From Trypanosoma brucei (lineage: Eukaryota), in contig AE017150.2 in NCBI GenBank assembly GCA_000002445.1, forward strand, positions 704,001 to 768,000: a DNA stretch of 64,000 bases, read 5' to 3'. Of this stretch, positions 3,607 through 48,700 are shown piece after piece (the stretch's first letter is position 1; each line of letters begins with the position of its first letter). The translations under genes were made by a program, and so were the position numbers. The notes under the pieces were generated by a model that saw only the letters and a list, made by a program, of their open reading frames with translations, did not search any database and was not told the DNA's origin.

Positions 3607-5418
3607 TTATTGAGCCTCTGCAACCCAGAAGCAACTGCGATAACCATCGAAAACGAGCGGCCGCTGTATGGGCACCCGTCGGTGTTGCAAAAGTTTTATA
3701 CACTCTTGTGCTGCCGCCGCACCCATAACACCTGCCGTTGGAAAGGGTTCGCCACAGCCGCATCGCGCAACCTCCATGCACGCTTTCCTCATGAGACACT
3801 CATCGACTACTTTATCACTTCTACCGCTTTCGTTTAGTATTCGCTCTCCAACGATACGTATCAACTCCTCTCCATCACTCATCCACAACAGGGTATCATC
3901 CTTGTCGCCGTAGTGCACGCGACCATTTAAGGAATCCAATAAGCCAGGCCATCTTCCAAACATTTCCTCAAAGCAGCGTGCCCCCAGTAAAGCGGCGTAC
4001 AACATTACAGTGAATTGCTCGCTAGCATCAACACAATCCGAGAGATAACGTTCAAAGGATTCCCGCTGCAGCAACTCGTGAGAGTCGATATCGAGAGAGG
4101 GCGAAAACGTGGTTAGCTGCAGCGTCCAGATATTCTGGACAAGCGACCTTGTCAACGCGCTAACCTCAGTTTCCAACCCTGTTTTCTCCCCCACCAACAG
4201 TGCTGTTGATGCTGCGGTATCTGAAGTAAATTTGCCACCCATCACATTAGAGGCATTAATTGCCTCCATTGCATAACCTTGCACAACACAACAGTCATCC
4301 TCCATCTTGTTGTTGTAAATGGAACGAAGCTCTCGGTACCATTGTGTTGTTGTGTTAATATCTGGAACAAACCCGCAAAATGGTGGTACTCCATTATTTT
4401 CGGCAATAAACCTGTTGATACCATACAACACAGCCCAGGTGATGGGAGGTACGCCGCTCACCGGGAATCCTCCGCTCCAGTCAATAAAATGACCGTTCGC
4501 ACGGGGATCCCTCAGTAATTGTTCAAGAGATTCAGAGAGGCACATTGGGCGGTTAAGTATCATACGGCAGTTCTCCATTGCTTCATGGACTCCATCAGGA
4601 GGACGGTCTGAGAGGTACGGAAGTGATGACACAGCAGTGCGGAGGGTATCATAATCCGCTTTACTGCACGGTATAAATTCCGCATTCTCCTTATCACAAC
4701 GTAGACACTGGAGCGCATGATAAATCATCGCAATCCACGGCAAGTGGCCGTAGCCAGCGGGATCGGTACGGTACAAAACCTCATCTCTCGGATCATGCGC
4801 GTCGAGCCAACTGCGCAACTCAGGAAATGGATTGAATAAGCGAAGGTCTGCCACGCGCATTTCCTGCTTTGGTTCAGCATGAACAACGAGACGCTCCCGG
4901 TCCTGTATTTGAATGATGCCAGATAAACCACACGTTTGAACGTACATAAGCGGTATACTCCTCAAAGAGGCACTTTTAAGATGATCTGCCAGGCGTCGGA
5001 GGTGGGTAGCCGGAAGACGAGGCGTAGCCACAATGAGCGTAGGGAAACGTCCTACAAAGTCTCTTCCTCCAGAAGTGGATGAAATAAACGAATCGCTCCA
5101 CTCGACACAGGATTGTACACAGGCAGTACCACTACTATGAGGGTTCAATTCACACAGTCGCTTCACCAACACTTCTGATAAAGGTTTTCTTGCTGCGTAA
5201 TCGCTCAGTTCCACAAAGTAATTATTACCCAATGTATCTGCATCTACAAACGAGCCGTCCACCAGCGTGAAAAAGCCAAGCCCGGGTAGTATCATGTTCT
5301 TAAGCATTTCCACGGCGGTTGCAGTTGCCCCAAGTACCACCACGTGTGACTCCGCTAACGCCATTTGTCCCGCATGTCCCCATAGTCGCAGCTGCCTGTC
5401 ATATTTTTCATTACTCAT
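3607..5418 (-). CDS. ThiF/ubiquitin-like-activating-enzyme E1 family protein. Most like the NEDD8-activating enzyme regulatory subunit (APP-BP1/ULA1); an AOS1-like protein is the alternative.
   Basis: An N-terminal 'YDRQLRLWGHAGQ' motif is followed by a Rossmann-like 'VVVLGATATAVEMLKNMILPGLGFFTLVDG' segment typical of E1 adenylation-domain folds. The length of about 603 aa fits ULA1 better than AOS1. The ORF-track start is TTG; the ATG at 5418 (MSNEKYDRQ) is used. Confidence 0.5.
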   Translation of the reverse strand: MSNEKYDRQLRLWGHAGQMALAESHVVVLGATATAVEMLKNMILPGLGFFTLVDGSFVDADTLGNNYFVELSDYAARKPLSEVLVKRLCELNPHSSGTACVQSCVEWSDSFISSTSGGRDFVGRFPTLIVATPRLPATHLRRLADHLKSASLRSIPLMYVQTCGLSGIIQIQDRERLVVHAEPKQEMRVADLRLFNPFPELRSWLDAHDPRDEVLYRTDPAGYGHLPWIAMIYHALQCLRCDKENAEFIPCSKADYDTLRTAVSSLPYLSDRPPDGVHEAMENCRMILNRPMCLSESLEQLLRDPRANGHFIDWSGGFPVSGVPPITWAVLYGINRFIAENNGVPPFCGFVPDINTTTQWYRELRSIYNNKMEDDCCVVQGYAMEAINASNVMGGKFTSDTAASTALLVGEKTGLETEVSALTRSLVQNIWTLQLTTFSPSLDIDSHELLQRESFERYLSDCVDASEQFTVMLYAALLGARCFEEMFGRWPGLLDSLNGRVHYGDKDDTLLWMSDGEELIRIVGERILNESGRSDKVVDECLMRKACMEVARCGCGEPFPTAGVMGAAAAQECIKLLQHRRVPIQRPLVFDGYRSCFWVAEAQ

Positions 5419-6847
5419 ACAAATCGCAAACAAAAAAGGACGATAACTGTGATGGTGCTGGCGCCGAGCGGTGACTGGGGAAGGTGATCTCCCTTTTTTG
5501 TATGGACCTGAGTATATATTTTTTCCAAAAATTTTTTGACGACTCGTTTCCGCTTTTCACACCTCTCCCCCTCCCTCCACCACCAGCAAAAACAAAAAAA
5601 AAACACCGCTACAGGGGGGGGGGATGTAAATTAGCAACAGGTGAAGCAAGAGTAATAGTTAAGATATGAGAAACAGAAGAGACCATTAATGGGTAACGGA
5701 AACGGACACGCGTAAGCTAGAAGTCGGGCATATATACAAATGGTGTGGTAAACCACGTGCAATATCTGTAGGCGTGAAATAAGCTCGAGTTGTGTAAAAA
5801 CTGATACAGAAGAATGTGCTGCACAACGAGTGGCATCTAGTTGCTTTCGTCTTTCCTTTCTCTTCCTTTAGACATAACCAGTTCTTGCAATCTGAACAAT
5901 TTTTTCTCCCTTCGTTTCATTTTCATTTGTGAGTGGCACACAACAAAAAAAGTGTTGAGCTTTAAAATGCGCACGCAACTGTACACCGGTTAACACTTTC
6001 CTCCTCCAAACTATAATTGCTATCGCTGATGTTACTGCGCTCCTTCTCTCCACATAATGCCTTTTCCCCATTTTCTTTCTCCTTTTCCCTCTTTTATCTT
6101 TCCTTCAGATGCACCCACACAACTTTGTATGAAAATTTGCATTTGTGTCATTGCGTAGACAATACGCACACGAAACAGTTACGCACTAGTGAACCCTCAA
6201 ATAGCAGTGATTTCCTCCTTACCTACAGTTACACAGTTGGAAAACGGGAGGTCTCCCTCGAGCCTTCCCTTCTTCCCCTCCCTTTTGCTTTCTTTTTCTT
6301 TTTCTTTTTCTCTTTTCCTCTTCTCTCACTCCTCATCACTAGACGAGTTTGGGAATGACAGCCACAATATACATGCAACAGAAAGGACGAAATGAAGAAT
6401 AGTAGACAAACAAAGCGCAGAAAAGAAAAAAAAATCAACACACTAAAAAAAAAAAAGAAACAACTCCCCCTTCCTTTTTCCTTTTTTTTAAAAAAAAGAG
6501 CAAGCACGACGTATGCCAGCCAAATTGCACAAAAAAGGGGGTAAGTTAGATAGAACGATAAACCACGCGTGGAAGGCAAAATTGTGATGGTATTTTGCTT
6601 CGAACATCTAATACATAAACATATAAATATAAGAGCAGGGAGGGTAGGGCAAACGTGTGTCAAAGTGGCAACCATCTGACGTGTGTGCACAGTTTGGTAT
6701 AGACAAATGAACGAAAGAAGTAAGAAGGATAAATGAAAGTAAGAAAAAGAAAAGGAAGCTCAAGTCATCACGTCTAACGAAAGGATCAGCGCCACATGGT
6801 ACGAAAAATAAAACAAACACGGAATGAAGTAACGATACACCCCCCTA

Positions 6848-9800
6848 TCAATTCTTCTTCGGTGATATCGATGGTGATTCAGGAGGTGACAAGCAGATAA
6901 TATTGTTATCATTCTGTGAGTAATATTGTTGACGATGAATCAGAGCGAGTCTTTTGGAGTTGGTGCTGCTTCCACGCTCGTGATCTATGTTCAGCGTCAG
7001 CGTAGGTGGGATTATACCCTCTGCATTTACATTTAACCTGGGACGCCGCTCAGAATTAACATCAAAACGCCGAATCGCCCTTTCGAACTTATGACGGAAG
7101 TTACTCGTGAACATCGTATCATCAGCGGCCTCCTCCTTGGCCACATTTTCTGATAAACCCCTCACACTGCACTCGGAGCAAATGACACTATTATTAGTTA
7201 CCTGGAAGTACGCGTCTGATATGCTATTCGCACCACACAGTTTGCAGCGAATACATTGTGGATGGAAATGCAATTTTCCGGCTTCGACACGTGTGACGGC
7301 GTCAACGGGACAGCCACAGTAAGCACACCCGACGTGAATCTCCTCAACAACGTGGATAGGACCCGTATAGTTGAGGGAAACACCGTTGCGAGCGCGAAAG
7401 ACAGAGTATTCTTCGGCGGGAGTTAAATTAAGGGGGTTGCGAACCCTCTGTATAACGTGAGGACCGTAATAATTTTCGTAAAGGAGACCTTTCCTTTTTC
7501 TCCTGACATGCTTGCCCACCGTTCCAGCTGCGGGTTGGTGCTGAGCAGATGCTAACACCTCCTGTTTCGCAGGCTTATCCCCTTTGCTCTTTTCCAATGT
7601 CCGTTGTGGCTCCTTCCCCACATTCGGTGTGAGATCCTTCTTTTCGGAGGGATTGACAGCGGCGCTCTCCACCCTTTTCGGTCCGTCGGCGCTGGCATCC
7701 TTCGGCAATGCAAGTTCCTTTGCCATACCACCCGGACCCGCCGTCTGGGCCCTTACTCCTGCATCTGAGTGTAAAGGAGTTGGTGTAGTGGCGCTCGTTT
7801 CCGTCTCTTTCCGCTCTGGAAATCCACTACCTTCCGTATTTTTCACATCATCCTCTCTGCTACTAACTACCGCGATATCCTGTTCACCCCGGGCGCCTCC
7901 AGAAACTCCAGCGGAACCAACAGTATTGACCACTTCATCATATTCAACAACCGGGGGATTTTCTCCACTCGGAGCCTCAAGGGTCTTAATATCATCAACA
8001 GCCCCAGCGGAGGCAATTGCGTCAGTTTCTACTCCAGTAACCTCAGCAAGAGGAGCCTCAGTGTTGTTGGCGGCCCGCTCGCTCTCTAGGTCCTTGAGCA
8101 CCTCTACAGCTTCGTGGGTAGCTTTGTTTTTGTCTACGGCCTTTGCGTCATTATCGACCTCGATACCACCGGAGGTTATTGCACCATCAACTACACTGTC
8201 ATCCCTAGTCGTGTCTGCTTGGTAAACAATCTCAGACTCCTCTACCACAACGGCAGATTCAGTGCCATCAACGCTAATTGTAACCTCGGCTCCCTCGATA
8301 ACTTCTGTGGCTTCCACAGTCTCAGTGGCATTGAGAGCCTCAACAGCTTCTGCAACTTCTGTGGCTTCCACAGTCTCAGTGGCATTGAGAGCCTCAGCAG
8401 CTTCTGCAACTTCTGTGGCTTCCACAGTCTCAGTGGCATTGAGAGCCTCAACAGCTTCTGCAACTTCCATAGCTTCGACAGTCTCAGTGGCATTGAGAGC
8501 CTCAGCAGCTTCTGCAACTTCTGTGGCTTCCACAGTCTCAGTGGCATTGAGAGCCTCAGCAGTTTCTGCAACTTCTGTGGCTTCCACAGTCTCAGTGGCA
8601 TTGAGAGCCCCAGCAGTTTCTGCAACTTCTGTGGCTTCCACAGTCTCAGTGGCATTGAGAGCCTCAGCAGTTTCTGCAACTTCTGTGGCTTCCACAGTCT
8701 CAGTGGCATTGAGAGCCCCAGCAGTTTCTGCAACTTCTGTGGCTTCCACAGTCTCAGTGGCATTGAGAGCCTCAGCAGTTTCTGCAACTTCTGTGGCTTC
8801 CACAGTCTCAGTGGCATTGAGAGCCTCAGCAGCTTCTGCAACTTCTGTGGCTTCCACAGTCTCAGTGGCATTGAGAGCCTCAGCAGCTTCTGCAACTTCT
8901 GTGGCTTCCACAGTCTCAGTGGCATTGAGAGCCTCAGCAGCTTCTGCAACTTCCGTGGCTTCCACAGTCTCAGTGGCATTGAGAGCCTCAGCAGTTTCTG
9001 CAACTTCTGTGGCTTCCACAGTCTCAGTGGCATTGAGAGCCTCAACAGCTTCTGCAACTTCCGTGGCTTCCACAGTCTCAGTGGCATTGAGAGCCTCAAC
9101 AGCTTCTGCAACTTCCGTGGCTTCCACAGTCTCAGTGGCATTGAGAGCCTCAACAGCTTCTGCAACTTCCGTGGCTTCCACAGTCTCAGTGGCATTGAGA
9201 GCCTCAACAGCTTCTGCAACTTCTGTGGCTTCCACAGTCTCAGTGGCATTGAGAGCCTCAGCAGCCTCTGCAGCTTCCGTGGCTTCCACAGTCTCAGTGG
9301 CATTGAGAGCCTCAGCAGTTTCTGCAACTTCTGTGGCTTCCACAGTCTCAGTGGCATTGAGAGCCTCAACAGCTTCTGCAACTTCTGTGGCTTCCACAGT
9401 CTCAGTGGCATTGAGAGCCTCAGCAGCTTCTGCAACTTCCGTGGCTTCCACAGTCTCAGTGGCATTGAGAGCCTCAGCAGTTTCTGCAACTTCTGTGGCT
9501 TCCACAGTCTCAGTGGCATTGAGAGCCTCAGCAGTTTCTGCAACTTCTGTGGCTTCCACAGTCTCAGTGGCATTGAGAGCCTCAGCAGCTTCTGCAACTT
9601 CTGTGGCTTCCACAGTCTCAGTGGCATTGAGAGCCTCAGCAGCTTCTGCAACTTCTGTGGCTTCCACAGTCTCAGTGGCATTGAGAGCCTCAGCAGTTTC
9701 TGCAACTTCTGTGGCTTCCACAGTCTCAGTGGCATTGAGAGCCTCAGCAGCTTCTGCAACTTCTGTGGCTTCCACAGTCTCAGTGGCATTGAGAGCCTCA

Positions 9801-10563
9801 GCAGCTTCTGCAACTTCTGTGGCTTCCACAGTCTCAGTGGCATTGAGAGCCTCAGCAGTTTCTGCAACTTCTGTGGCTTCCACAGTCTCAGTGGCATTGA
9901 GAGCCTCAACAGCTTCTGCAACTTCTGTGGCTTCCACAGTCTCAGTGGCATTGAGAGCCTCAGCAGCTTCTGCAACTTCTGTGGCTTCCACAGTCTCAGT
10001 GGCATTGAGAGCCTCAACAGCTTCTGCAACTTCCGTGGCTTCCACAGTCTCAGTGGCATTGAGAGCCTCAGCAGCTTCTGCAACTTCCGTGGCTTCCACA
10101 GTCTCAGTGGCATCATCTGCTTCAACAGTTTCTGCAACTTCCATAGCTTCGACAGTCTCAGTGGCATCATCTGCTTCAACAATCTCTGAAACTTCCATGA
10201 TTTCTACAGTCTCAGCGGCATCAGTGGTTACATTGTCTGTTCCGTAGCTTTTTTTTTTAATTTCTCCAATATGATTTTCTGTATTTGTGCCACAGATGCT
10301 TCCTGGAACTTGGTGTGTTTCAGTGGTATCTGAGCTCTTGATTGCTTCAATTGTCTCGTTTTCTTTAGGGTCCATGGGTGGAGAGGCAGTTTCAAAGTTT
10401 CGTTCGTCATTTAGTGTCACGCAATCACTTGCGTCGATACCTTTCCTGGTATTGGCAAGATCAGGAGGAGACGATATGTCGTGGAGATTAACTTCATCCT
10501 CCTCAGCATTTGTGTCGGGCGCACCTTCTAAGCTTTCAGGAAAACTTCCACGACTCGAAGACA
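6848..10563 (-). CDS. Acidic tandem-repeat protein with a C-terminal LIM-type zinc finger. It carries about 33 repeats of an 18-aa unit (ATETVEATEVAEAAEALN and A/V/T variants).
   Basis: ORF 6848..10594. The annotated first codon is GTG, and an in-frame ATG at 10563 (MSSSRGSF) is the likely start. The C-terminal region around 7160-7330 encodes CAYC-x17-H-x2-C-x2-C-x2-C-x18-C-x2-C, which matches the LIM consensus exactly. Confidence 0.7.
8290..10230 (-). repeat. 54-bp tandem repeat array of about 33 copies within the coding sequence. The central copies are near-perfect and the copies at both ends are degenerate.
   Basis: The period-54 unit ctcagtggcattgagagcctcaRcagYttctgcaacttcYgtggcttccacagt is directly visible. 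All three frames are open on both strands across the array, which produces the spurious ORFs 8114..10189(+), 8262..10247(+) and 8242..10182(-). Confidence 0.9.
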
Positions 10564-11418
10564 TTACCACCGCTTCAATATGCGAATGCGGCACTATCTA
10601 GTACGGGAGCCGAGCGAAAAGTATATCTAAATACTGTGATGGTTGAACTAAGTGTGGTGGGTTCCACGGGAGGGAAAATTTAACATTAAGATGATCCGGA
10701 GTGAACGTGCATTGAAGGATGCTGTAGCAAGAAACCACAGTTTCAGGGATTTTTTTTTAAAGGCTGAAACCATACCTGACTCCTTTTCGCTTGTCTGGTG
10801 CGACGGTTGGTAACAAGGTGTAGTACGTACACACACCAAACAGAGCTCTATGGCTGGGAAGTAGACGACATGAGGAACGCGGTCACAGAACAAAACGCAC
10901 CCCACAATGAGTAAAACCGTAAAATGTAAAATGATCTGTGCTGAGATTAATTGACCAAGAAAACATTATAAGAGAACCTGTGAGCCCTTAAATCTCTTTC
11001 ATTGCTCTAATTTCTCACTTTTATTCCTTTTTGCATTTTAATACATAGTTACTTCTTTCTTCTTGTACCAACTCCAGGAGCTGAACCGCGTAAGGTCTAA
11101 AAACTAATAGTTTGTTTCCACTGCTGCAGTTTCACCTCCCCATCATATTTTTATCTTTGTTTTACGTTAGCCTCATTTTTTTCTTTATGCCCTCTGATGA
11201 CCATCCAGTTTGCACACCTCAGTTAGAAAGGTGCACTCCCCTAGTCACCTGCAGATATCGAGCCTTTCTGATCCATTTTGCCCTGTCCTGCTACTAATGT
11301 ACATCACCATGCGGACGCCAGCGGTAACATTTGCCTTACTCCCAACAAAAGTCACCGTCTTCTCATGCTACAGCTGCTCTGTTTTCCAGTGCCTAAATAC
11401 CGCACGGTACGGCACAGG

Positions 11419-14013
11419 TTATGTGGTCGCCTTTCGAACTACATCCTCCAACTCACGTTCTTGTTCCTCCAGAGACAAGTTCATACTACTGTAGTACTGA
11501 CCGATAAGACGAAAGACCGTGACATCACCCTTCTCATCGCCTACCACAACAGCAGGGGCATCTTGTTCAGCGAATAGCACCGCGGTGAGGCGTCGCCTGT
11601 CCACATATTGCACACGAGAGGTAGGATGAATGGATTCGGCAATGGACCAAAATTCGACACTTCCTTGTGCACTTACGGTGGCAAAACTTGTAGAGTTTGC
11701 GTAGGACCACGCCACATCCTGCACCGCATCCTGGTTGGGACTGTCAAACGTCAGCACTTGTGCAGATTGACCAAGGCGATAAAGACGAGAACTCCAGTCA
11801 GCCGAACAAGTTAGAAAATAGTTGTCACTGTATGGAGACCACCGCACGCGATACACTAGCTCAGAGTGGGGGGCATAGTCTAGTTCGTAGTTCTCTGTCT
11901 GACTCTTGTTGCATTGATGCACGGAACCATCTTCCGTACCAACTACATACACACTTCCATCAGCTGGACAGACATCAAAGCACATACCACCACATTGCCG
12001 TGAAAAAAGCGCTTCACATCTACGTCGTTGCGTCGGCATTTTCAGACCCGCAGGAGCGCCATCTTTTTTACCATTCAGGACGCCGCTCGACTCAGCGGCG
12101 AACGCAGACTCTGATGCGGCACCGTGCTGCCTCTTGAGGTTCATAAGATCAGGAGCCACACGCTCAATGGTTTTACCGACAGCCCACTGTACAACACGAC
12201 CATCGCCGGATATGGAAAGGAGGAACTCTCCTCGCTCCTTCCGCCGCGCCACCCATTTCAGCTCCCACACCGCCCCAGTGTGCTGACCGCTTGTGAGGGT
12301 GGTTTTGATAGCGGGGATATTTGTGTCCTTTCGTATGTCATAAATAACGATGCGCCCCTCCGTATTTCCGACCGCAAGAAGACTCGGATGCTCGTCGGAA
12401 AAGGCAATGGAGGAAACACCAGCTTCGGAGGAAAGTTGAATAACGCGCTCAGGAGCAAGAGGATTCTTGAGCGACCAGCAACATACAATACCACCATGAA
12501 ACATGTGTGGGGCATCTAACATTTGAGTCTCTTCGTCATGATACGCGCTGTAACCCACAGCAAGAATGTCGGTCTCTTTGCAATTCCACGCCATACAGGT
12601 TACCTCGCGCCGCTTTGTGATGGGCGATCGAAACGTCCATAAGGCCCTCACATCTTCAGGCAACTTCACTGGTGGCACTTCCGCCTTTTGTGCAACTGCT
12701 GCAGCAGAATCGTCGACCCCAGCTGTCTGTTGATCATTCTGCTGCTCTGCTTCTTTATTATCATCCGTAGTTGCAGAGTTCATGTCGTCTGAATCAGGTC
12801 CCATCAGACCTGACGTTGCCGCTTCCTCCTTCCTTACCCGACAAGCTTCTGGATCCATTACTATCCCTCTATAGGAGAGCTGCACCTCTTCCATGGTATT
12901 CTGCACGACTACGCGCTCCATCACGCGCAGGGTTGACATGATCGTGTCCGAAAACATCCACGCCACTGACTGTTGGGATGTACTTGCATTACTAGGATCT
13001 GTTGTGCGCTCGGAACCCGTATCCTTTCCGGTATCCGAGGGGTCCTCAACAAGTTCTACTTCCTCCTCCTCCTCATCCGCGGTTCCCTCTTGGTCTTCGT
13101 CATTTGTATCATTTTCGGCAAAATGCGCAAACGCGTCGCGAAGCATCCACGGTGTGACTTGTAACCCACCAGAATTCTTTTTGGACGGAGGCTGTATGGC
13201 AGAGTGAATAGACTTTTTCGGTGGCGCAAACGTCCAGGAGCCCTTCACCTGAAACCGCGTCCCCTCGTCCACACGTTTTGCCTCAACCAACTCGGCATAC
13301 GCTTTGTTGCGCTCTAAAACTTCGTTTAACTCAGTCGGCCGATCGTTTGGAACTACTTCATCCTGGTGCATGTAGAGCATGATCGTTGGGGTTTCGTGAA
13401 GCACAACAGTTGTTTTTTCCTCTAACCACTCGCGGCGCTGCTCCCGAGTGAGCACCTGCGTCGCGTCGCCGCGGCCGTGACCATCCCACGACGTGTGTGG
13501 CGGCGCGTCAGCCAGCGGACCACTTCCGGCTGCTCGAGCGGAACCGGTGGTTGTGCTCGAGAGGCGGTGATCAATTGAAATACTCGTGAGTGAGGACGAC
13601 GCAGTGAGGAATCCGACTTGAGATTGATTTGCCCCTTCTCCCGTGGATGGAATTGGAACAACATCAGCAGAAGCATTCAAGGCAGATGACTGAAATATGG
13701 AGTTGGAGTCGGGAAGCATTGCTTGACTTACAGACGTCGTTATCTGACCGCTTGTGTTCTGACTAAAGGGGTGACGCGGATCGTGCGGAGCTCCGCTACC
13801 AGCCCTTTGAAGTGGAAGCGGTGTACGGTCAACGCCATTGTCCAGAACGTGAATTGCTGCTTCTACTTCCTTTTTTGAGTCCGTTGAGCGCCGCCTGCCT
13901 TCCCCTTTACCCCGACGGACGTGGGAACCTCTCACCGCGCTACGGTCACTGCCGCCCCGGCGGTGTCCGCCCGTGGTTGACATTTGGTTTCCACTCGAGG
14001 AGCCATTTTTCAT
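11419..14013 (-). CDS. WD40-repeat protein that resembles a dynein intermediate chain. It has a long disordered S/G/T-rich N-terminus and a C-terminal beta-propeller.
   Basis: ORF 11419..14367. The first 118 codons translate an F/S/L/P-rich polypyrimidine tract and are unlikely to be coding. The first ATG at 14013 (MKNGSSSG) is preferred. The segment 'VTCMAWNCKETDILAVGYSAY...GGIVCCWSLKNPLAPE' resembles the conserved first WD blades of dynein intermediate chains, and several WD-like repeats follow. Confidence 0.45.
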   Translation of the reverse strand: MKNGSSSGNQMSTTGGHRRGGSDRSAVRGSHVRRGKGEGRRRSTDSKKEVEAAIHVLDNGVDRTPLPLQRAGSGAPHDPRHPFSQNTSGQITTSVSQAMLPDSNSIFQSSALNASADVVPIPSTGEGANQSQVGFLTASSSLTSISIDHRLSSTTTGSARAAGSGPLADAPPHTSWDGHGRGDATQVLTREQRREWLEEKTTVVLHETPTIMLYMHQDEVVPNDRPTELNEVLERNKAYAELVEAKRVDEGTRFQVKGSWTFAPPKKSIHSAIQPPSKKNSGGLQVTPWMLRDAFAHFAENDTNDEDQEGTADEEEEEVELVEDPSDTGKDTGSERTTDPSNASTSQQSVAWMFSDTIMSTLRVMERVVVQNTMEEVQLSYRGIVMDPEACRVRKEEAATSGLMGPDSDDMNSATTDDNKEAEQQNDQQTAGVDDSAAAVAQKAEVPPVKLPEDVRALWTFRSPITKRREVTCMAWNCKETDILAVGYSAYHDEETQMLDAPHMFHGGIVCCWSLKNPLAPERVIQLSSEAGVSSIAFSDEHPSLLAVGNTEGRIVIYDIRKDTNIPAIKTTLTSGQHTGAVWELKWVARRKERGEFLLSISGDGRVVQWAVGKTIERVAPDLMNLKRQHGAASESAFAAESSGVLNGKKDGAPAGLKMPTQRRRCEALFSRQCGGMCFDVCPADGSVYVVGTEDGSVHQCNKSQTENYELDYAPHSELVYRVRWSPYSDNYFLTCSADWSSRLYRLGQSAQVLTFDSPNQDAVQDVAWSYANSTSFATVSAQGSVEFWSIAESIHPTSRVQYVDRRRLTAVLFAEQDAPAVVVGDEKGDVTVFRLIGQYYSSMNLSLEEQERELEDVVRKATT

Positions 14014-15467: not shown

Positions 15468-16003
15468 CTCCACCAGTAGATTTCTGTCCTCGTCTTTGCT
15501 TCCTTTTCTTTTTCGTTTCTCCACTCTTCCTCTCTCTACACACTGTTAACAGCCTTTCCTTTTTTTCTTTTCTGTTTCCCTTCTCACCTCTTTTGTGTCA
15601 CACCAAGTTTCTGCGGAGCACCCTCTACTGTTTTTTTCTCTTTGCTTCACGATCGGTGTCTGCTCTTCCCCTTATGCGGTGACGCGTCCGTTATCCGCTT
15701 CACTTAAATGAACAAATAGTTGCGTTATTAATGAAGTAAGTAACACCGATCTAATGAGCTGGTGCAGTATATAAGAAGTGTGTTTTGCCTTTTTTTTCTT
15801 TTTTTAAATATATTTGAAGCAAATTTTGCAAACCAGCCTTTCACAGAAGAATGTGATATATAGAAATGCGGTCCGCGACGAATTGGGGGAAGAACGATGA
15901 AAAGAGAAAAGAAAACGAGAACAGACAACAAACATATGATAGTGTCGAGACAGAAAAAAAGTTATGGATGTCATTAAAATCAAATGAAAGGTTGCACATG
16001 GTG

Positions 16004-39767: not shown

Positions 39768-42700
39768 TCACGAGACCGCATTGGCTGAACGAGACCTTTT
39801 CCTTGTGCTACGTATGTCCATGACTTGCCGTACCTGTCGCTGTGTTTGTTCAGTGATTCTGGAATGATGTGATGACTCAACGGACAAGCTCACCCTCTCT
39901 CTGGTGGTTCTTCCTGCACCTAGCACAGGTGACCCCCGAATTTGCTGTTCCGGTGGGCTGCTGTGTTGTGCCACTTCTGATGACACACGACCACCATAGG
40001 TTACAACCCTTGTCTTGGCATATCGAAGCTCGTCCTCCAGACCTTTCTTATCGCCCTGCAACTTCTGAACTGCGCTTTCAAGTTGTAAGGTCTTCCTTGA
40101 TGCATTCTCCGCATCTTGTGCCGCCTTGGCCGCATCTTGTTCATACTGGTCAAGTTGTTCGTCCTTCTGTACAAGCTCATCCTGCAGCCGTTGAACCTCC
40201 TCATCCTTTCGTTGTAGAGCTTTTTCAAGGAACGTAACGCGCGCCTGCGACATGCGAATACGCGCTTCATCCCCCTCCACAACGGCCTTTTGACGAGAGG
40301 AACCGCTTTGCCGTTTTGGGGAACCACTCGTCGATGCAACCTCCTCGCGGAGTGTTTGCACCTGAGCCTCCATCAGACTGAATGCTTTCGCCAGTTCCTC
40401 AGCTTGCTGCCTGGCCGCAAGTTCACCCTCACGTTTCGATGCCTCCAGTGCGGAGAGTTTATTGCGGCTCGCTTGCAACTGTGCGGAGAGCGAGTTGTTC
40501 TGCTGTTTCAACCGACTAACTTCCTCACCTCGCTCACGACCAAGTTCATCGACCCTCTCGGTGAGAGTACGACGCTCAGCTATGAGTTCTTCACGTTGCT
40601 GACGCATTTCCACCAACTGTTGACGAATTTCATCTAAATCTTCCAGATACGCATTTGACTGCGACGAATTCTGTTCCAATGACAAGAGAAGTTCCTCTTG
40701 ATTGGATTCCAACTGACGGCAAGTTTTTCGGCAGAGCATTAGATCTGCGTGAAGGCTTGATATTTGTAGAAACTGGGCGAGATCTACAGCCTCTAAGTCC
40801 ACCGGTTCCGCCCCCACAGAACTCACATCAACGGAACCATCCACACCTAATACACTGTGCGCGCCACGAACGTCCTTTGCCCGAACAAATTGTTCCAACC
40901 GCTGGCACTCCTTCTGCAATTTAACTACTTCCAGACATTTTCTTTCCAAATCTTGCTCTAGCCGAACATTGCGCTCCTCCAACCTCCTCCTCGCATCATT
41001 AGAGCGATCAACGGATCTTCTTGCGACAATAAGTTCCGTCACGCAACCCTCACTCCTACGGTCATAAAATTCTTCAAAACCACGCTTCGTAGCGGAAACT
41101 TGAGCATGAAGTTCATCCACAACCCGAGACAACCTCTCAACATCTGCACCAACAGCACCATCACTATCCCCCACTTTACCATTCAAAGAAGAAACACTAT
41201 CCACAAGCAAACGATTACTAACCAAAACTTCATCTTTTAAAAAAGATATTTCCTCAACACTCCTCTCCAGCTTCTCCTTTGCTGTACGGAGTTCCTCCTC
41301 AAGTGTAGAAACACGTTCCTCCATCTCAGTTGCCTTTTCTAAAGCAGCTTCCCGTTCCTCAGCAAGTCGCTCAAGTGCTACTAAAGCAGATGCCAATTGT
41401 GTACCAAGATCCGTATCAGCATTCCTTACAGCAACATCAGACACAAGAGCAGCTCGTGCATTGCCATCCTTGTCAGACTGTGAGGTGCGTACACGAACTC
41501 CAGCGGCATTCAACTTATTCGTTAGCTGTATGATCTCTTCTTCTGCTTCACGAAGACGTTGTTGCGTGTGTTGCAATTCTGTTGTGAAAGCTGCCACAGT
41601 TTGTTCAGGTGTTGTACCGTAACTCTCCAAACGGGAAACAGTTTCCTCAAGTTGCGTAAGTTTTGTCACATGTAGCTCACGTTCTGCAGACATTTTCTTC
41701 GTGGTTGAGTGCGCTGTACGGAGTTCCTCCTCAAGTGTAGAAACACGTTCCTCCATCTCAGTTGCCTTTTCTAAAGCAGCTTCCCGTTCCTCAGCAAGTC
41801 GCTCAAGTGCTACTAAAGCAGATGCCAATTGTGTACCAAGATCTGTATCAGCATTCCTTACAGCAACATCAGACACAAGAGCAGCTCGTGCATTGCCATC
41901 CTTGTCAGACTGTGAGGTGCGTACACGAACTCCAGCGGCATTCAACTTATTCGTTAGCTGTATGATCTCTTCCTCTGCTTCACGAAGACGTTGTTGCGTG
42001 TGTTGCAATTCTGTTGTGAAAGCTGCCACAGTTTGTTCAGGTGTTGTACCGTAACTCTCCAAACGGGAAACAGTTTCCTCAAGTTGCGTAAGTTTTGTCA
42101 CATGTAGCTCACGTTCTGCAGACATTTTCTTCGTGGTTGAGTGCGCTGTACGGAGTTCCTCCTCAAGTGTAGAAACACGTTCCTCCATCTCAGTTGCCTT
42201 TTCTAAAGCAGCTTCCCGTTCCTCAGCAAGTCGCTCAAGTGCTACTAAAGCAGATGCCAATTGTGTACCAAGATCCGTATCAGCATTCCTTACAGCAACA
42301 TCAGACACAAGAGCAGCTCGTGCATTGCCATCCTTGTCAGACTGTGAGGTGCGTACACGAACTCCAGCGGCATTCAACTTATTCGTTAGCTGTATGATCT
42401 CTTCTTCTGCTTCACGAAGACGTTGTTGCGTGTGTTGCAATTCTGTTGTGAAAGCTGCCACAGTTTGTTCAGGTGTTGTACCGTAACTCTCCAAACGGGA
42501 AACAGTTTCCTCAAGTTGCGTAAGTTTTGTCACATGTAGCTCACGTTCTGCAGACATTTTCTTCGTGGTTGAGTGCGCTGTACGGAGTTCCTCCTCAAGT
42601 GTAGAAACACGTTCCTCCATCTCAGTTGCCTTTTCTAAAGCAGCTTCCCGTTCCTCAGCAAGTCGCTCAAGTGCTACTAAAGCAGATGCCAATTGTGTAC

Positions 42701-45700
42701 CAAGATCCGTATCAGCATTCCTTACAGCAACATCAGACACAAGAGCAGCTCGTGCATTGCCATCCTTGTCAGACTGTGAGGTGCGTACACGAACTCCAGC
42801 GGCATTCAACTTATTCGTTAGCTGTATGATCTCTTCTTCTGCTTCACGAAGACGTTGTTGCGTGTGTTGCAATTCTGTTGTGAAAGCTGCCACAGTTTGT
42901 TCAGGTGTTGTACCGTAACTCTCCAAACGGGAAACAGTTTCCTCAAGTTGCGTAAGTTTTGTCACATGTAGCTCACGTTCTGCAGACATTTTCTTCGTGG
43001 TTGAGTGCGCTGTACGGAGTTCCTCCTCAAGTGTAGAAACACGTTCCTCCATCTCAGTTGCCTTTTCTAAAGCAGCTTCCCGTTCCTCAGCAAGTCGCTC
43101 AAGTGCTACTAAAGCAGATGCCAATTGTGTACCAAGATCTGTATCAGCATTCCTTACAGCAACATCAGACACAAGAGCAGCTCGTGCATTGCCATCCTTG
43201 TCAGACTGTGAGGTGCGTACACGAACTCCAGCGGCATTCAACTTATTCGTTAGCTGTATGATCTCTTCTTCTGCTTCACGAAGACGTTGTTGCGTGTGTT
43301 GCAATTCTGTTGTGAAAGCTGCCACAGTTTGTTCAGGTGTTGTACCGTAACTCTCCAAACGGGAAACAGTTTCCTCAAGTTGCGTAAGTTTTGTCACATG
43401 TAGCTCACGTTCTGCAGACATTTTCTTCGTGGTTGAGTGCGCTGTACGGAGTTCCTCCTCAAGTGTAGAAACACGTTCCTCCATCTCAGTTGCCTTTTCT
43501 AAAGCAGCTTCCCGTTCCTCAGCAAGTCGCTCAAGTGCTACTAAAGCAGATGCCAATTGTGTACCAAGATCCGTATCAGCATTCCTTACAGCAACATCAG
43601 ACACAAGAGCAGCTCGTGCATTGCCATCCTTGTCAGACTGTGAGGTGCGTACACGAACTCCAGCGGCATTCAACTTATTCGTTAGCTGTATGATCTCTTC
43701 CTCTGCTTCACGAAGACGTTGTTGCGTGTGTTGCAATTCTGTTGTGAAAGCTGCCACAGTTTGTTCAGGTGTTGTACCGTAACTCTCCAAACGGGAAACA
43801 GTTTCCTCAAGTTGCGTAAGTTTTGTCACATGTAGCTCACGTTCTGCAGACATTTTCTTCGTGGTTGAGTGCGCTGTACGGAGTTCCTCCTCAAGTGTAG
43901 AAACACGTTCCTCCATCTCAGTTGCCTTTTCTAAAGCAGCTTCCCGTTCCTCAGCAAGTCGCTCAAGTGCTACTAAAGCAGATGCCAATTGTGTACCAAG
44001 ATCTGTATCAGCATTCCTTACAGCAACATCAGACACAAGAGCAGCTCGTGCATTGCCATCCTTGTCAGACTGTGAGGTGCGTACACGAACTCCAGCGGCA
44101 TTCAACTTATTCGTTAGCTGTATGATCTCTTCCTCTGCTTCACGAAGACGTTGTTGCGTGTGTTGCAATTCTGTTGTGAAAGCTGCCACAGTTTGTTCAG
44201 GTGTTGTACCGTAACTCTCCAAACGGGAAACAGTTTCCTCAAGTTGCGTAAGTTTTGTCACATGTAGCTCACGTTCTGCAGACATTTTCTTCGTGGTTGA
44301 GTGCGCTGTACGGAGTTCCTCCTCAAGTGTAGAAACACGTTCCTCCATCTCAGTTGCCTTTTCTAAAGCAGCTTCCCGTTCCTCAGCAAGTCGCTCAAGT
44401 GCTACTAAAGCAGATGCCAATTGTGTACCAAGATCCGTATCAGCATTCCTTACAGCAACATCAGACACAAGAGCAGCTCGTGCATTGCCATCCTTGTCAG
44501 ACTGTGAGGTGCGTACACGAACTCCAGCGGCATTCAACTTATTCGTTAGCTGTATGATCTCTTCTTCTGCTTCACGAAGACGTTGTTGCGTGTGTTGCAA
44601 TTCTGTTGTGAAAGCTGCCACAGTTTGTTCAGGTGTTGTACCGTAACTCTCCAAACGGGAAACAGTTTCCTCAAGTTGCGTAAGTTTTGTCACATGTAGC
44701 TCACGTTCTGCAGACATTTTCTTCGTGGTTGAGTGCGCTGTACGGAGTTCCTCCTCAAGTGTAGAAACACGTTCCTCCATCTCAGTTGCCTTTTCTAAAG
44801 CAGCTTCCCGTTCCTCAGCAAGTCGCTCAAGTGCTACTAAAGCAGATGCCAATTGTGTACCAAGATCCGTATCAGCATTCCTTACAGCAACATCAGACAC
44901 AAGAGCAGCTCGTGCATTGCCATCCTTGTCAGACTGTGAGGTGCGTACACGAACTCCAGCGGCATTCAACTTATTCGTTAGCTGTATGATCTCTTCTTCT
45001 GCTTCACGAAGACGTTGTTGCGTGTGTTGCAATTCTGTTGTGAAAGCTGCCACAGTTTGTTCAGGTGTTGTACCGTAACTCTCCAAACGGGAAACAGTTT
45101 CCTCAAGTTGCGTAAGTTTTGTCACATGTAGCTCACGTTCTGCAGACATTTTCTTCGTGGTTGAGTGCGCTGTACGGAGTTCCTCCTCAAGTGTAGAAAC
45201 ACGTTCCTCCATCTCAGTTGCCTTTTCTAAAGCAGCTTCCCGTTCCTCAGCAAGTCGCTCAAGTGCTACTAAAGCAGATGCCAATTGTGTACCAAGATCT
45301 GTATCAGCATTCCTTACAGCAACATCAGACACAAGAGCAGCTCGTGCATTGCCATCCTTGTCAGACTGTGAGGTGCGTACACGAACTCCAGCGGCATTCA
45401 ACTTATTCGTTAGCTGTATGATCTCTTCCTCTGCTTCACGAAGACGTTGTTGCGTGTGTTGCAATTCTGTTGTGAAAGCTGCCACAGTTTGTTCAGGTGT
45501 TGTACCGTAACTCTCCAAACGGGAAACAGTTTCCTCAAGTTGCGTAAGTTTTGTCACATGTAGCTCACGTTCTGCAGACATTTTCTTCGTGGTTGAGTGC
45601 GCTGTACGGAGTTCCTCCTCAAGTGTAGAAACACGTTCCTCCATCTCAGTTGCCTTTTCTAAAGCAGCTTCCCGTTCCTCAGCAAGTCGCTCAAGTGCTA

Positions 45701-48700
45701 CTAAAGCAGATGCCAATTGTGTACCAAGATCCGTATCAGCATTCCTTACAGCAACATCAGACACAAGAGCAGCTCGTGCATTGCCATCCTTGTCAGACTG
45801 TGAGGTGCGTACACGAACTCCAGCGGCATTCAACTTATTCGTTAGCTGTATGATCTCTTCTTCTGCTTCACGAAGACGTTGTTGCGTGTGTTGCAATTCT
45901 GTTGTGAAAGCTGCCACAGTTTGTTCAGGTGTTGTACCGTAACTCTCCAAACGGGAAACAGTTTCCTCAAGTTGCGTAAGTTTTGTCACATGTAGCTCAC
46001 GTTCTGCAGACATTTTCTTCGTGGTTGAGTGCGCTGTACGGAGTTCCTCCTCAAGTGTAGAAACACGTTCCTCCATCTCAGTTGCCTTTTCTAAAGCAGC
46101 TTCCCGTTCCTCAGCAAGTCGCTCAAGTGCTACTAAAGCAGATGCCAATTGTGTACCAAGATCCGTATCAGCATTCCTTACAGCAACATCAGACACAAGA
46201 GCAGCTCGTGCATTGCCATCCTTGTCAGACTGTGAGGTGCGTACACGAACTCCAGCGGCATTCAACTTATTCGTTAGCTGTATGATCTCTTCCTCTGCTT
46301 CACGAAGACGTTGTTGCGTGTGTTGCAATTCTGTTGTGAAAGCTGCCACAGTTTGTTCAGGTGTTGTACCGTAACTCTCCAAACGGGAAACAGTTTCCTC
46401 AAGTTGCGTAAGTTTTGTCACATGTAGCTCACGTTCTGCAGACATTTTCTTCGTGGTTGAGTGCGCTGTACGGAGTTCCTCCTCAAGTGTAGAAACACGG
46501 TCCTCCATCTCAGTTGCCTTTTCTAAAGCAGCTTCCCGTTCCTCAGCAAGTCGCTCAAGTGCTACTAAAGCAGATGCCAATTGTGTACCAAGATCCGTAT
46601 CAGCATTCCTTACAGCAACATCAGACACAAGAGCAGCTCGTGCATTGCCATCCTTGTCAGACTGTGAGGTGCGTACACGAACTCCAGCGGCATTCAACTT
46701 ATTCGTTAGCTGTATGATCTCTTCCTCTGCTTCACGAAGACGTTGTTGCGTGTGTTGCAATTCTGTTGTGAAAGCTGCCACAGTTTGTTCAGGTGTTGTA
46801 CCGTAACTCTCCAAACGGGAAACAGTTTCCTTAAGTTGCGTAAGTTTTGTCACATGTAGCTCACGTTCTGCAGACATTTTCTTCGTGGTTGAGTGCGCTG
46901 TACGGAGTTCCTCCTCAAGTGTAGAAACACGTTCCTCCATCTCAGTTGCCTTTTCTAAAGCAGCTTCCCGTTCCTCAGCAAGTCGCTCAAGTGCTACTAA
47001 AGCAGATGCCAATTGTGTACCAAGATCCGTATCAGCATTCCTTACAGCAACATCAGACACAAGAGCAGCTCGTGCATTGCCATCCTTGTCAGACTGTGAG
47101 GTGCGTACACGAACTCCAGCGGCATTCAACTTATTCGTTAGCTGTATGATCTCTTCCTCTGCTTCACGAAGACGTTGTTGCGTGTGTTGCAATTCTGTTG
47201 TGAAAGCTGCCACAGTTTGTTCAGGTGTTGTACCGTAACTCTCCAAACGGGAAACAGTTTCCTCAAGTTGCGTAAGTTTTGTCACATGTAGCTCACGTTC
47301 TGCAGACATTTTCTTCGTGGTTGAGTGCGCTGTACGGAGTTCCTCCTCAAGTGTAGAAACACGTTCCTCCATCTCAGTTGCCTTTTCTAAAGCAGCTTCC
47401 CGTTCCTCAGCAAGTCGCTCAAGTGCTACTAAAGCAGATGCCAATTGTGTACCAAGATCCGTATCAGCATTCCTTACAGCAACATCAGACACAAGAGCAG
47501 CTCGTGCATTGCCATCCTTGTCAGACTGTGAGGTGCGTACACGAACTCCAGCGGCATTCAACTTATTCGTTAGCTGTATGATCTCTTGCTCTGCTTCACG
47601 AAGACGTTGTTGCGTGTGTTGCAATTCTGTTGTGAAAGCTGCCACAGTTTGTTCAGGTGTTGTACCGTAACTCTCCAAACGGGAAACAGTTTCCTCAAGT
47701 TGCGTAAGTTTTGTCACATGTAGCTCACGTTCTGCAGACATTTTCTTCGTGGTTGAGTGCGCTGTACGGAGTTCCTCCTCAAGTGTAGAAACACGTTCCT
47801 CCATCTCAGTTGCCTTTTCTAAAGCAGCTTCCCGTTCCTCAGCAAGTCGCTCAAGTGCTACTAAAGCAGATGCCAATTGTGTACCAAGATCCGTATCAGC
47901 ATTCCTTACAGCAACATCAGACACAAGAGCAGCTCGTGCATTGCCATCCTTGTCAGACTGTGAGGTGCGTACACGAACTCCAGCGGCATTCAACTTATTC
48001 GTTAGCTGTATGATCTCTTCCTCTGCTTCACGAAGACGTTGTTGCGTGTGTTGCAATTCTGTTGTGAAAGCTGCCACAGTTTGTTCAGGTGTTGTACCGT
48101 AACTCTCCAAACGGGAAACAGTTTCCTCAAGTTGCGTAAGTTTTGTCACATGTAGCTCACGTTCTGCAGACATTTTCTTCGTGGTTGAGTGCGCTGTACG
48201 GAGTTCCTCCTCAAGTGTAGAAACACGTTCCTCCATCTCAGTTGCCTTTTCTAAAGCAGCTTCCCGTTCCTCAGCAAGTCGCTCAAGTGCTACTAAAGCA
48301 GATGCCAATTGTGTACCAAGATCCGTATCAGCATTCCTTACAGCAACATCAGACACAAGAGCAGCTCGTGCATTGCCATCCTTGTCAGACTGTGAGGTGC
48401 GTACACGAACTCCAGCGGCATTCAACTTATTCGTTAGCTGTATGATCTCTTCCTCTGCTTCACGAAGACGTTGTTGCGTGTGTTGCAATTCTGTTGTGAA
48501 AGCTGCCACAGTTTGTTCAGGTGTTGTACCGTAACTCTCCAAACGGGAAACAGTTTCCTCAAGTTGCGTAAGTTTTGTCACATGTAGCTCACGTTCTGCA
48601 GACATTTTCTTCGTGGTTGAGTGCGCTGTACGGAGTTCCTCCTCAAGTGTAGAAACACGTTCCTCCATTTCAGTTGCTCTTGCTAGTGTAGCATCGTGCT

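What the first reader, a model, noticed from the sequence alone, without database searches (positions are those of the whole stretch)
6848..10563. Acidic 18-aa tandem-repeat protein ending in a canonical LIM zinc finger
The C-terminal region matches the LIM consensus exactly: CAYC-x17-H-x2-C-x2-C-x2-C-x18-C-x2-C. As far as I recall, LIM domains are rare or poorly documented in kinetoplastids. Here one is fused to about 33 copies of a highly acidic repeat (ATETVEATEVAEAAEALN), and the N-terminus has no signal peptide. The repeat varies non-synonymously in a patterned way, with A/V/T at two positions giving AAE, AVE, TAE and TAG forms. This architecture is unusual and could be a cytoskeletal or scaffold protein.
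Basis: partly seen in the sequence, partly recalled or inferred. Interest (0 to 1): 0.65.

Follow-up and report, generated by a model that had tools for sequence, protein, structure and literature searches.

The report
Known trypanosome flagellar LIM protein (IJAP2)
This is a real gene for a flagellar-skeleton protein of Trypanosoma brucei whose C-terminal LIM zinc finger is already annotated and partly built into a published cryo-EM structure of the flagellar microtubule doublet, so only its long, variable acidic repeat array remains unexplained.

Summary
It carries 33 canonical and 3 degenerate 18-aa acidic repeats, and a perfect LIM spacing at residues 1080-1132.

The LIM reading also holds:
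- Pfam LIM scores at its threshold (23.5 vs 22.9 bits).
- All 39 relatives hit LIM, and all eight zinc ligands are invariant.
- A family profile and a confident AlphaFold model hit only LIM structures.

It is not new. The window is T. brucei TREU927 chromosome 2. The protein is identical over its full length to chain 0q of PDB 9E5C, the T. brucei 96-nm doublet-microtubule repeat, where about 97 C-terminal residues are modelled. Its 429-aa L. tarentolae orthologue is chain 4L of 9Y6S, listed as IJAP2 (T. brucei orthologue Tb927.2.4050), an external microtubule-associated protein with 96-nm periodicity. Deleting IJAP2 in L. mexicana left growth, swimming and flagellum length normal.

The repeat array is specific to T. 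brucei. I count 36, 27 and 13 units in brucei, gambiense and equiperdum, and none in T. congolense, T. vivax or Leishmania. It looks like a recently amplified, weakly constrained version of an acidic disordered N-terminal tail that is common among the trypanosomatid orthologues. Interest is low.

The parts
6848..10564 (-). Complete CDS (1238 aa plus stop) of the T. brucei LIM zinc-binding domain protein. It is the orthologue of L. tarentolae IJAP2 and is listed as Tb927.2.4050.
   Evidence: ORF list and translation. The sequence is identical over 1-1238 to PDB 9e5c chain 0q. The orthologue table is in the supplement of PMC12637542.
10220..10564 (-). N-terminal non-repeat acidic region, aa 1-115. 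Net charge is -15, with no signal peptide.
   Evidence: Between T. b. brucei and T. b. gambiense there are 6 non-synonymous and 3 synonymous differences in aa 1-133.
8276..10219 (-). Tandem array of 36 units of 18 aa (aa 116-763), consensus ATETVEATEVAEAAEALN. Net charge is -182 with no basic residue. Glu falls at every third position, and each unit is built from three 6-aa sub-units.
   Evidence: TRF 8300-10167, period 54, 34.6 copies, 96% matches. Unit table. Charge and the period-3 hydrophobic moment. An 18-bp sub-period is seen in the T. b. gambiense copy.
7436..8275 (-). Low-complexity linker, aa 764-1043, net charge -17. It is not conserved outside T. brucei.
   Evidence: No alignable counterpart exists in the orthologues, whose conserved region starts at about aa 1044.
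7328..7435 (-). Conserved pre-LIM motif, aa 1044-1079: TPAEEYxxFRxRNxVxxNYxGPxxVVEExxV. G1068 and E1074 are invariant.
   Evidence: Family alignment A1. pLDDT is 75-87 in the alignment-based model.
7163..7327 (-). LIM domain, aa 1080-1134. Zinc ligands are C1080, C1083, H1101, C1104 in the first finger and C1107, C1110, C1129, C1132 in the second.
   Evidence: Regular expression. Pfam PF00412 at 1080-1134. Ligands invariant in 39 sequences. pLDDT 94-97. Foldseek hits to LIM structures.
6851..7162 (-). C-terminal tail, aa 1135-1238. The model predicts a long helix at about aa 1138-1173 (pLDDT falls to about 60-80 from aa 1149) and the conserved motif LxxRQQxYxQxDxN at aa 1207-1220 (nt 6905-6946).
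   Evidence: Alignment. Model secondary structure gives helices at residues 120-155 and 184-200 of the 220-aa query.
11419..14013 (-). Neighbouring gene: axonemal inner-arm dynein intermediate chain DNAI4/IC138 (Tb927.2.4060). It was used to identify the locus by synteny and is not part of the protein.
   Evidence: Identical to PDB 9e5c chain 5l. Exact match to XP_951616.1 of T. b. brucei TREU927. The pairs LtaP33.2860/2870 and Tb927.2.4060/4050 are adjacent in both species.

Best explanation
The ORF is the Trypanosoma brucei orthologue (listed as Tb927.2.4050) of the trypanosomatid axonemal protein IJAP2, an external doublet-microtubule-associated protein that recurs once per 96-nm axonemal repeat.

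**Anchor (partly shown, partly inferred).** The conserved C-terminal part of about 195 residues is the ordered part. It comprises a pre-LIM motif, one LIM double zinc finger, a helix and an RQQxYxQxDxN motif. Some 97 residues within the last 220 are built in the T. brucei cryo-EM model. I infer that this module docks the protein on the doublet, with the LIM domain acting as a protein-protein adaptor as LIM domains do elsewhere.

**Acidic tail (inferred).** Everything N-terminal of the anchor is acidic and poorly conserved. It is apparently not ordered in the maps: only 97 of 1238 residues are modelled, and all of them lie in the last 220. I infer that it is a flexible tail projecting from the doublet.

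**Repeat array.** In T. brucei alone this tail has been inflated by tandem amplification of a 54-bp unit through unequal crossing-over or gene conversion. The result is a polyanion of about 650 residues (net charge about -182). Its copy number differs between subspecies, and its sequence variants are a few unit haplotypes copied in blocks.

**Function.** The orthologue is dispensable for growth and motility in cultured L. mexicana. The most likely role is therefore a minor structural or accessory one, and the repeat expansion is probably nearly neutral.
For: **Identity**
- The protein is 100% identical over 1238 aa to 9e5c_0q.
- 9E5C is titled 'Cryo-EM structure of 96 nm repeat of microtubule doublet from T. 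brucei flagellum'. The modelled chain has 97 residues, all aligning at 100% identity inside the last 220 aa.

**Orthology**
- 9y6s_4L (429 aa) matches at E = 1e-30, and its sequence equals L. tarentolae GET92022.1.
- The supplement of PMC12637542 lists IJAP2 as LtaP33.2870, 429 aa, 96-nm periodicity, under 'External MAPs', with T. brucei orthologue Tb927.2.4050.
- The adjacent gene is IC138, Tb927.2.4060 / LtaP33.2860.

**LIM domain**

**Selection between T. b. brucei and T. b. gambiense**
- In aa 865-1238 there are 0 non-synonymous and 5 synonymous differences.
- In aa 1-133 and 764-864 together there are 12 non-synonymous and 5 synonymous differences.

**Acidic tail is common among trypanosomatids**
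- Of the 19 trypanosomatid-type relatives P0007-P0025, 17 have an acidic N-terminal region (pI 4.0-5.5, net -4 to -37). P0017 and P0019 have short, slightly basic ones.
- The C-terminal module is basic in 18 of them (pI about 8.9-10); P0015 is near neutral at 7.2.

**Array is T. brucei-specific and variable**
- 36, 27 and 13 units in TREU927, DAL972 and T. b. equiperdum.
- The T. congolense (446 aa), T. vivax (405 aa), T. grayi (406 aa) and L. tarentolae orthologues have no array.

**Unit variants**
- Four recurrent polymorphic sites exist, three non-synonymous and one synonymous. That ratio is about the neutral expectation.
- Blocks such as (AAE AAE TAE)x2 and (TAE TAG)x2 recur.

**Function**
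- L. mexicana IJAP2 deletion: growth, motility, cell shape and flagellum length normal, speed 9.1 um/s.
- The C. fasciculata orthologue CFAC1_210037100 is 423-fold more abundant in swimming cells than in attached cells.
Against: - I could not read the T. brucei structure paper (Xia et al. 2025; not held). I also could not inspect coordinates. The exact binding site, the contact partners and whether zinc was modelled are therefore not verified here.
- 'IJAP' is not defined in the text I could read. Reading it as 'inner-junction-associated protein' is my interpretation.
- Copy numbers come from genome assemblies, which can collapse tandem arrays.
- The null phenotype is from Leishmania promastigotes in culture and from a protein without the array. 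It says nothing direct about T. brucei or about the repeats.
- The T. brucei C-terminal module is nearly neutral (pI 7.9), unlike most orthologues.
Confidence: 0.85

Rival explanations
1. The acidic array is a functional, T. brucei-specific addition. It would be a polyanionic brush or tether anchored every 96 nm on each doublet. It might buffer divalent cations, repel or space neighbouring structures (paraflagellar rod, neighbouring doublet, intraflagellar-transport trains), mimic the glutamate-rich tubulin tails, or span one axonemal repeat as a helix.
For: - The reading frame is strictly maintained over 1.9 kb, with 182 acidic and no basic residues.
- Glu falls at every third position in every unit.
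- The array is kept, at different lengths, in three T. brucei subspecies.
- By arithmetic, 648 residues as an alpha-helix at 0.15 nm per residue would be about 97 nm long, close to the 96-nm repeat.
Against: - Copy number varies almost threefold between subspecies (36, 27, 13), which argues against a ruler.
- T. congolense, T. vivax and Leishmania lack the array yet have the same axonemal repeat.
- Unit polymorphisms show a neutral-like ratio of non-synonymous to synonymous changes.
- Flanking non-repeat parts evolve with pN/pS of about 0.5-0.9.
- The helical hydrophobic moment is low (0.35 at 100 degrees), and with no positive charges an isolated helix is unlikely.
- Only 97 of the 1238 residues are built in the cryo-EM model, and all of them align within the last 220 aa, so the array is not modelled.
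Confidence: 0.12
2. The zinc module is not a true LIM domain but another two-zinc module (RING, PHD, B-box or a zinc ribbon) that happens to fit the LIM spacing.
For: The Pfam LIM score of the T. brucei sequence alone is marginal: 21.3 bits on the full-length protein and 23.5 bits on the fragment, against a cut-off of 22.9.
Against: - No RING, PHD or B-box model scores even at E <= 10.
- All 39 relatives hit LIM, best 2e-30. Other zinc models appear once each at E > 0.004.
- The family profile finds only LIM chains in the PDB (CRP1 2e-10, EPLIN 3e-7, LIMD2 4e-7).
- Nearly all non-self Foldseek hits listed are LIM domains; the two exceptions are full-length MICAL1, which also contains a LIM domain.
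Confidence: 0.02
3. The long array is an assembly artefact, and the real gene is a short one like those of other trypanosomatids.
For: Tandem arrays with 96% unit identity are hard to assemble. The three assemblies give three different lengths.
Against: - An array of the same unit, in frame and at the same position, is present in three independently assembled genomes.
- Units carry distinct, ordered variants rather than a collapsed consensus.
Confidence: 0.02

Closest known systems
T. brucei 'LIM zinc-binding domain-containing protein', PDB 9E5C chain 0q (96-nm repeat of the flagellar doublet microtubule, released 2025-03-12)
   Same: It is the same protein, identical over all 1238 residues.
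   Different: Nothing differs. Only about 97 C-terminal residues are modelled there, so the repeat array has no structural description.
Leishmania tarentolae IJAP2 (LtaP33.2870; PDB 9Y6S chain 4L; L. mexicana LmxM.32.2640)
   Same: It is an orthologue. The pre-LIM motif, LIM domain, post-LIM region and RQQxYxQxDxN motif are shared (E = 1e-30, about 40% identity over 180 aa). It has the same neighbour gene (IC138) and an acidic N-terminal region.
   Different: It is 429 aa with no tandem array. Its N-terminal net charge is about -12, against -214 in T. brucei. Its C-terminal module is clearly basic (pI 9.4 against 7.7-7.9).
Classical single-LIM and LIM-only cytoskeletal adaptors (CRP1/MLP, EPLIN/LIMA1, LIMD2, FHL, PINCH)
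   Same: The LIM fold and ligand pattern are the same. These are the best sequence-profile and fold matches outside the family. They also act as protein-protein adaptors on the cytoskeleton (established knowledge of the family).
   Different: Those proteins work on actin, adhesion or transcription complexes. This one sits on an axonemal microtubule doublet. Its family-specific pre-LIM and C-terminal motifs are absent from them, and the family was found only in Euglenozoa and in unassigned environmental sequences.
Tandem-repeat cytoskeletal and flagellar proteins of trypanosomatids. From my own knowledge these include T. cruzi FRA and T. brucei GM6 and MARP, known mainly as B-cell antigens.
   Same: All have long, nearly identical in-frame tandem repeats within an intracellular cytoskeletal protein, with copy number varying between strains.
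   Different: No sequence relationship was tested or is claimed. Antigenicity of this array is unknown.

Membership tests
LIM domain (Pfam PF00412) | Ligand spacing C-x2-C-x16-23-H-x2-C-x2-C-x2-C-x16-21-C-x2-(C/H/D) | tested here: met
   There is a single match at aa 1080-1132, with spacers of 17 and 18 residues.
LIM domain (Pfam PF00412) | Score at or above Pfam's gathering threshold (22.9 bits) | tested here: met
   - The C-terminal 220 aa score 23.5 bits (E = 6.8e-5). The full-length protein scores 21.3 bits, just below the threshold.
- All 39 of 39 family members match, best 2e-30.
- The family profile hits PDB LIM chains, CRP1 at 2e-10.
LIM domain (Pfam PF00412) | All eight zinc ligands conserved in orthologues | tested here: met
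   C62, C65, H83, C86, C89, C92, C111 and C114 of the 220-aa query (add 1018 for full-length numbering) are invariant in 39 sequences.
LIM domain (Pfam PF00412) | LIM fold (two sequential zinc fingers made of beta-hairpins, with a short terminal helix) | tested here: met
   The alignment-based AlphaFold2 model has pLDDT 94-97 over the domain, with strands at 75-77, 80-82, 101-103 and 109-111 and a helix at 112-116. Foldseek hits include LMO2, FHL2, EPLIN, CRP, LIMD2 and TRIP6 at probability about 1.0.
LIM domain (Pfam PF00412) | Binds two zinc ions | not testable with these tools
   This needs the coordinates or density of 9E5C or 9Y6S, or metal analysis of the protein.
IJAP2 / Tb927.2.4050 (trypanosomatid axonemal doublet-associated LIM protein) | Sequence identity or orthology with the chains built in the doublet-microtubule structures | tested here: met
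   The protein is 100% identical to 9e5c_0q over 1238 aa. It matches 9y6s_4L at E = 1e-30, and the profile matches at 1e-75.
IJAP2 / Tb927.2.4050 (trypanosomatid axonemal doublet-associated LIM protein) | Conserved synteny next to the IC138/DNAI4 gene | tested here: met
   The upstream ORF 11419-14013 is IC138. The same order is found in T. b. gambiense. LtaP33.2860 and LtaP33.2870 are adjacent in L. tarentolae.
IJAP2 / Tb927.2.4050 (trypanosomatid axonemal doublet-associated LIM protein) | Physical location on the outside of the doublet microtubule with 96-nm periodicity | not testable with these tools
   This is taken from the PDB entry title and the supplementary table of PMC12637542.
RING / PHD / B-box zinc modules | Significant match to the family model, or a cross-braced fold | tested here: not met
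   No such Pfam hit at E <= 10 for the T. brucei protein. One weak Sina_RING hit (E = 0.0044) occurred in 1 of 39 relatives. No such chains appear in the PDB profile search, nor among the 50 Foldseek hits listed.
Plasmodium histidine-rich protein (PF05403) / LED repeat (PF20854) | True homology rather than shared composition | tested here: not met
   Both hits (85.3 and 54.8 bits) fall on the Ala/Glu/Thr repeat array. The array contains no histidine: all His residues lie at positions 28-98 and 817-1210. I judge these hits to be compositional artefacts.

The most novel reading that the evidence does not exclude
The T. brucei-specific array has a function of its own. About 650 residues of pure polyanion (about -182 charge) would be tethered once per 96 nm to each doublet. 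It could act as an electrostatic spacer or brush, or as a divalent-cation sink, that tunes the unusual T. brucei flagellar beat or the relation of the doublets to the paraflagellar rod. Copy-number variation would then be a tunable parameter between subspecies.
Probability: 0.1. Interest if true: 0.5.

Novelty: already known. Interest (0 to 1): 0.15.

Why it matters
It matters little as a discovery. The gene, its LIM annotation, its place in the axoneme and a knockout of its Leishmania orthologue are all on record.

Three small additions come from this work:
- A family definition. The pre-LIM motif, one LIM domain and the RQQxYxQxDxN motif are found in trypanosomatids and unassigned environmental sequences. 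Related three-LIM euglenid proteins share the pre-LIM motif but lack the C-terminal motif.
- The observation that an acidic, unstructured N-terminal tail is common among trypanosomatid orthologues.
- The observation that T. brucei alone has blown this tail up into a copy-number-variable tandem array. That array could serve as a strain marker, or as a candidate repeat antigen, if anyone cared to test it.

Tried and rejected
- **Word-indexed protein search.** The search for homologous proteins with the C-terminal 250 aa gave no hit. The exact protein is not in that collection. The exhaustive HMMER search did find the family.
- **Single-sequence AlphaFold.** The model of the C-terminal 220 aa was useless (pLDDT 33). 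The 39-sequence alignment fixed this.
- **Text searches.** Searches for '9E5C', 'IJAP2', 'Tb927.2.4050' and 'LmxM.32.2640' found nothing relevant in main texts. Xia et al. 2025 (PMC12165780) is not held. Doran et al. 2025 does not mention the protein.
- **Pfam Plasmodium_HRP and LED_rpt hits.** I rejected both as compositional artefacts of the Ala/Glu/Thr repeats.
- **Amphipathic helix or coiled coil.** The hydrophobic moment peaks at 120 degrees (period 3, Glu every third residue) and not at 100 degrees.
- **96-nm helical ruler.** I considered this because 648 aa x 0.15 nm is about 97 nm. I set it aside because copy number varies (36, 27, 13) and other trypanosomatids have no array.
- **Patterned non-synonymous variation as a sign of selection.** There are only four recurrent variable sites, three non-synonymous and one synonymous. 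That is what neutral change would give, and the variants are spread in blocks by unit duplication.
Full report
**1. What is in the sequence**

The minus strand carries an ORF at 6848..10594, measured from a GTG. The first ATG is at 10564 and gives 1238 aa, starting MSSSRGS.

Tandem Repeats Finder reports a 54-bp unit with 34.6 copies, 96% matches and score 3400 at 8300-10167. At protein level:
- There are 35 units containing TETVE, preceded by one degenerate AAETVE unit.
- The array (aa 116-763) has 182 Asp/Glu and no Lys/Arg.
- The whole protein has net charge -213.

The LIM regular expression matches once, at aa 1080-1132.

**2. Is it a LIM domain?**

Yes. The evidence comes from five independent checks.
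- **Pfam.** PF00412 covers aa 1080-1134. It scores 23.5 bits (E = 6.8e-5) when the C-terminal 220 aa are scanned, and 21.3 bits on the whole protein. The gathering score is 22.9. On its own this is borderline.
- **Family search.** An exhaustive HMMER search of 1.84 billion representative proteins found a family of about 39 relatives. All 39 hit Pfam LIM, best 2e-30.
- **Conservation.** In their alignment the only invariant columns are the eight zinc ligands plus G1068, E1074 and R1092.
- **Profile against the PDB.** Apart from the two axonemal chains, a profile of the family finds only LIM domains: CRP1 at 2e-10, EPLIN at 3e-7, LIMD2 at 4e-7.
- **Fold.** AlphaFold2 with the alignment gives pLDDT 94-97 over the domain. 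Nearly all non-self Foldseek hits listed are LIM structures.

No RING, PHD or B-box model scored. Zinc binding itself could not be tested here.

**3. What the protein is**

A sequence search of the PDB shows that the protein is identical over all 1238 residues to chain 0q of 9E5C. That entry is titled 'Cryo-EM structure of 96 nm repeat of microtubule doublet from T. brucei flagellum' and was released on 2025-03-12. The modelled chain has 97 residues, and they lie inside the last 220 aa.

A 429-aa homologue is chain 4L of 9Y6S, the L. tarentolae 96-nm doublet repeat.

The supplementary chain table of that study (PMC12637542) lists, under 'External MAPs', IJAP2 as LtaP33.2870, 429 residues, periodicity 96 nm, with T. 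brucei orthologue Tb927.2.4050. It also lists IC4/IC138 as LtaP33.2860 / Tb927.2.4060.

In the window, the next gene upstream (11419-14013, minus strand) is IC138. It is identical to 9e5c_5l and to XP_951616.1 of T. b. brucei TREU927. The window is therefore TREU927 chromosome 2, and the finding is Tb927.2.4050.

UniProt and NCBI already name several orthologues as LIM zinc-binding or LIM-domain proteins.

**4. Function on record**

In the L. mexicana deletion screen of the same study, the IJAP2 mutant had normal growth, motility (9.15 um/s), cell shape and flagellum length.

In Crithidia fasciculata the orthologue CFAC1_210037100 is 423-fold more abundant in swimming cells than in attached, short-flagellum cells. 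Other axonemal proteins behave the same way.

**5. Anatomy of the family**

The conserved part starts about 35 residues before the LIM domain, with the motif T-x-x-EE-x3-FR-x-RN-x-V-x3-Y-x-GP-x-x-V-x-E. It runs through the LIM domain and a predicted long helix. It ends in the motif L-x2-RQQ-x-Y-x-Q-x-D-x-N.

- Trypanosomatid members (Trypanosoma, Leishmania, Angomonas and unnamed assemblies) mostly precede this module with a poorly conserved acidic region of about 100-400 aa. Seventeen of 19 are acidic (pI 4.0-5.5, net -4 to -37); P0017 and P0019 have short, slightly basic regions.
- The conserved module itself is basic in 18 of 19 (pI about 8.9-10).
- Short environmental relatives of about 200-280 aa have no N-terminal extension.
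- Euglenid proteins (Ploeotia, Rhabdomonas) share the pre-LIM motif and carry further Cys-rich LIM-like repeats in place of the C-terminal motif.

**6. The repeat array**

The array is confined to T. brucei.
- Unit counts are 36 in TREU927 (1238 aa), 27 in T. b. gambiense DAL972 (1076 aa, L001:13452-16682) and 13 in T. b. equiperdum (824 aa).
- T. congolense, T. vivax, T. grayi and Leishmania have no array.
- Within TREU927 only four sites vary in more than one unit: nt 24 (synonymous, 10 units), nt 37 (A13T, 12), nt 41 (A14V, 10) and nt 44 (E15G, 2).
- Variants recur in blocks, such as (AAE AAE TAE)x2, AVEx4 and (TAE TAG)x2. This is the signature of unit duplication and unequal exchange, not of selection on residues.
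- The unit is itself three 6-aa sub-units (ATETVE, ATEVAE, AAEALN) with Glu at every third position. The hydrophobic moment peaks at 120 degrees and is low at the helical 100 degrees.

Between T. b. brucei and T. b. gambiense, the last 374 aa show 0 non-synonymous and 5 synonymous differences. The regions flanking the array show 12 non-synonymous and 5 synonymous differences. The anchor is constrained and the acidic parts are not.

**7. Most likely mechanism**

The C-terminal module is the ordered, docked part on the doublet. Its being built in two cryo-EM models is shown. The identity of the contacts is inferred, because I could not inspect coordinates or read Xia et al. 2025.

The acidic N-terminal part is a flexible appendage, inferred from composition, lack of conservation and absence from the model. 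The T. brucei array is a recent, copy-number-variable amplification of that appendage and is probably close to neutral.

A functional polyanionic brush, cation sink or ruler cannot be excluded. As a helix, 648 aa would be about 97 nm long. Against this stand the threefold variation in copy number, the absence of the array from sister species and the neutral-like variation.

**8. Verdict**

Its orthologue is dispensable in culture. Interest is low. The only open point is what, if anything, the T. brucei-specific acidic array does.

Noticed in passing
window 41281-48677, within ORF 39768..50711 (-): This is a second and much larger tandem array: a 432-bp (144-aa) unit, 17.1 copies, 99% identical, TRF score 14689. 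It lies inside a 3647-aa ORF. Pfam gives only coiled-coil or low-complexity noise with no domain-level stretch, and no PDB chain matches at E <= 1e-10.
   Followed up: partly
window 11419-14013 (-): The gene next to the LIM protein is the inner-arm dynein intermediate chain DNAI4/IC138 (Tb927.2.4060), another component of the 96-nm axonemal repeat. The adjacency is conserved in T. b. gambiense and L. tarentolae (LtaP33.2860/2870). In trypanosomatids this most likely reflects conserved polycistronic gene order rather than co-regulation.
   Followed up: partly
window 1-64000: Every long ORF that looks like a gene is on the minus strand, consistent with a single polycistronic transcription unit. 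These include ThiF-like 3607-5433, SRP receptor beta 14655-15524, M16 peptidase 16227-17636 and enoyl-CoA hydratase/3-hydroxyacyl-CoA dehydrogenase 18501-20942. The long plus-strand ORFs at 8114-10247 are mirror-frame artefacts of the repeat array.
   Followed up: partly
window 30001-32000 and 54001-56000: Two stretches have markedly low G+C (0.333 and 0.312, against about 0.46-0.53 elsewhere). Both fall in gaps between long ORFs. I did not examine them.
   Followed up: no
P0026-P0041 (environmental and Logan proteins), P0042-P0044 (euglenids): Short relatives of 184-280 aa consist of just the pre-LIM motif, the LIM domain and the C-terminal motif, with no acidic extension; their source organisms are unidentified. 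Euglenid relatives (Ploeotia vitrea, Rhabdomonas costata) join the pre-LIM motif to further LIM-like repeats. The family therefore extends beyond trypanosomatids.
   Followed up: partly
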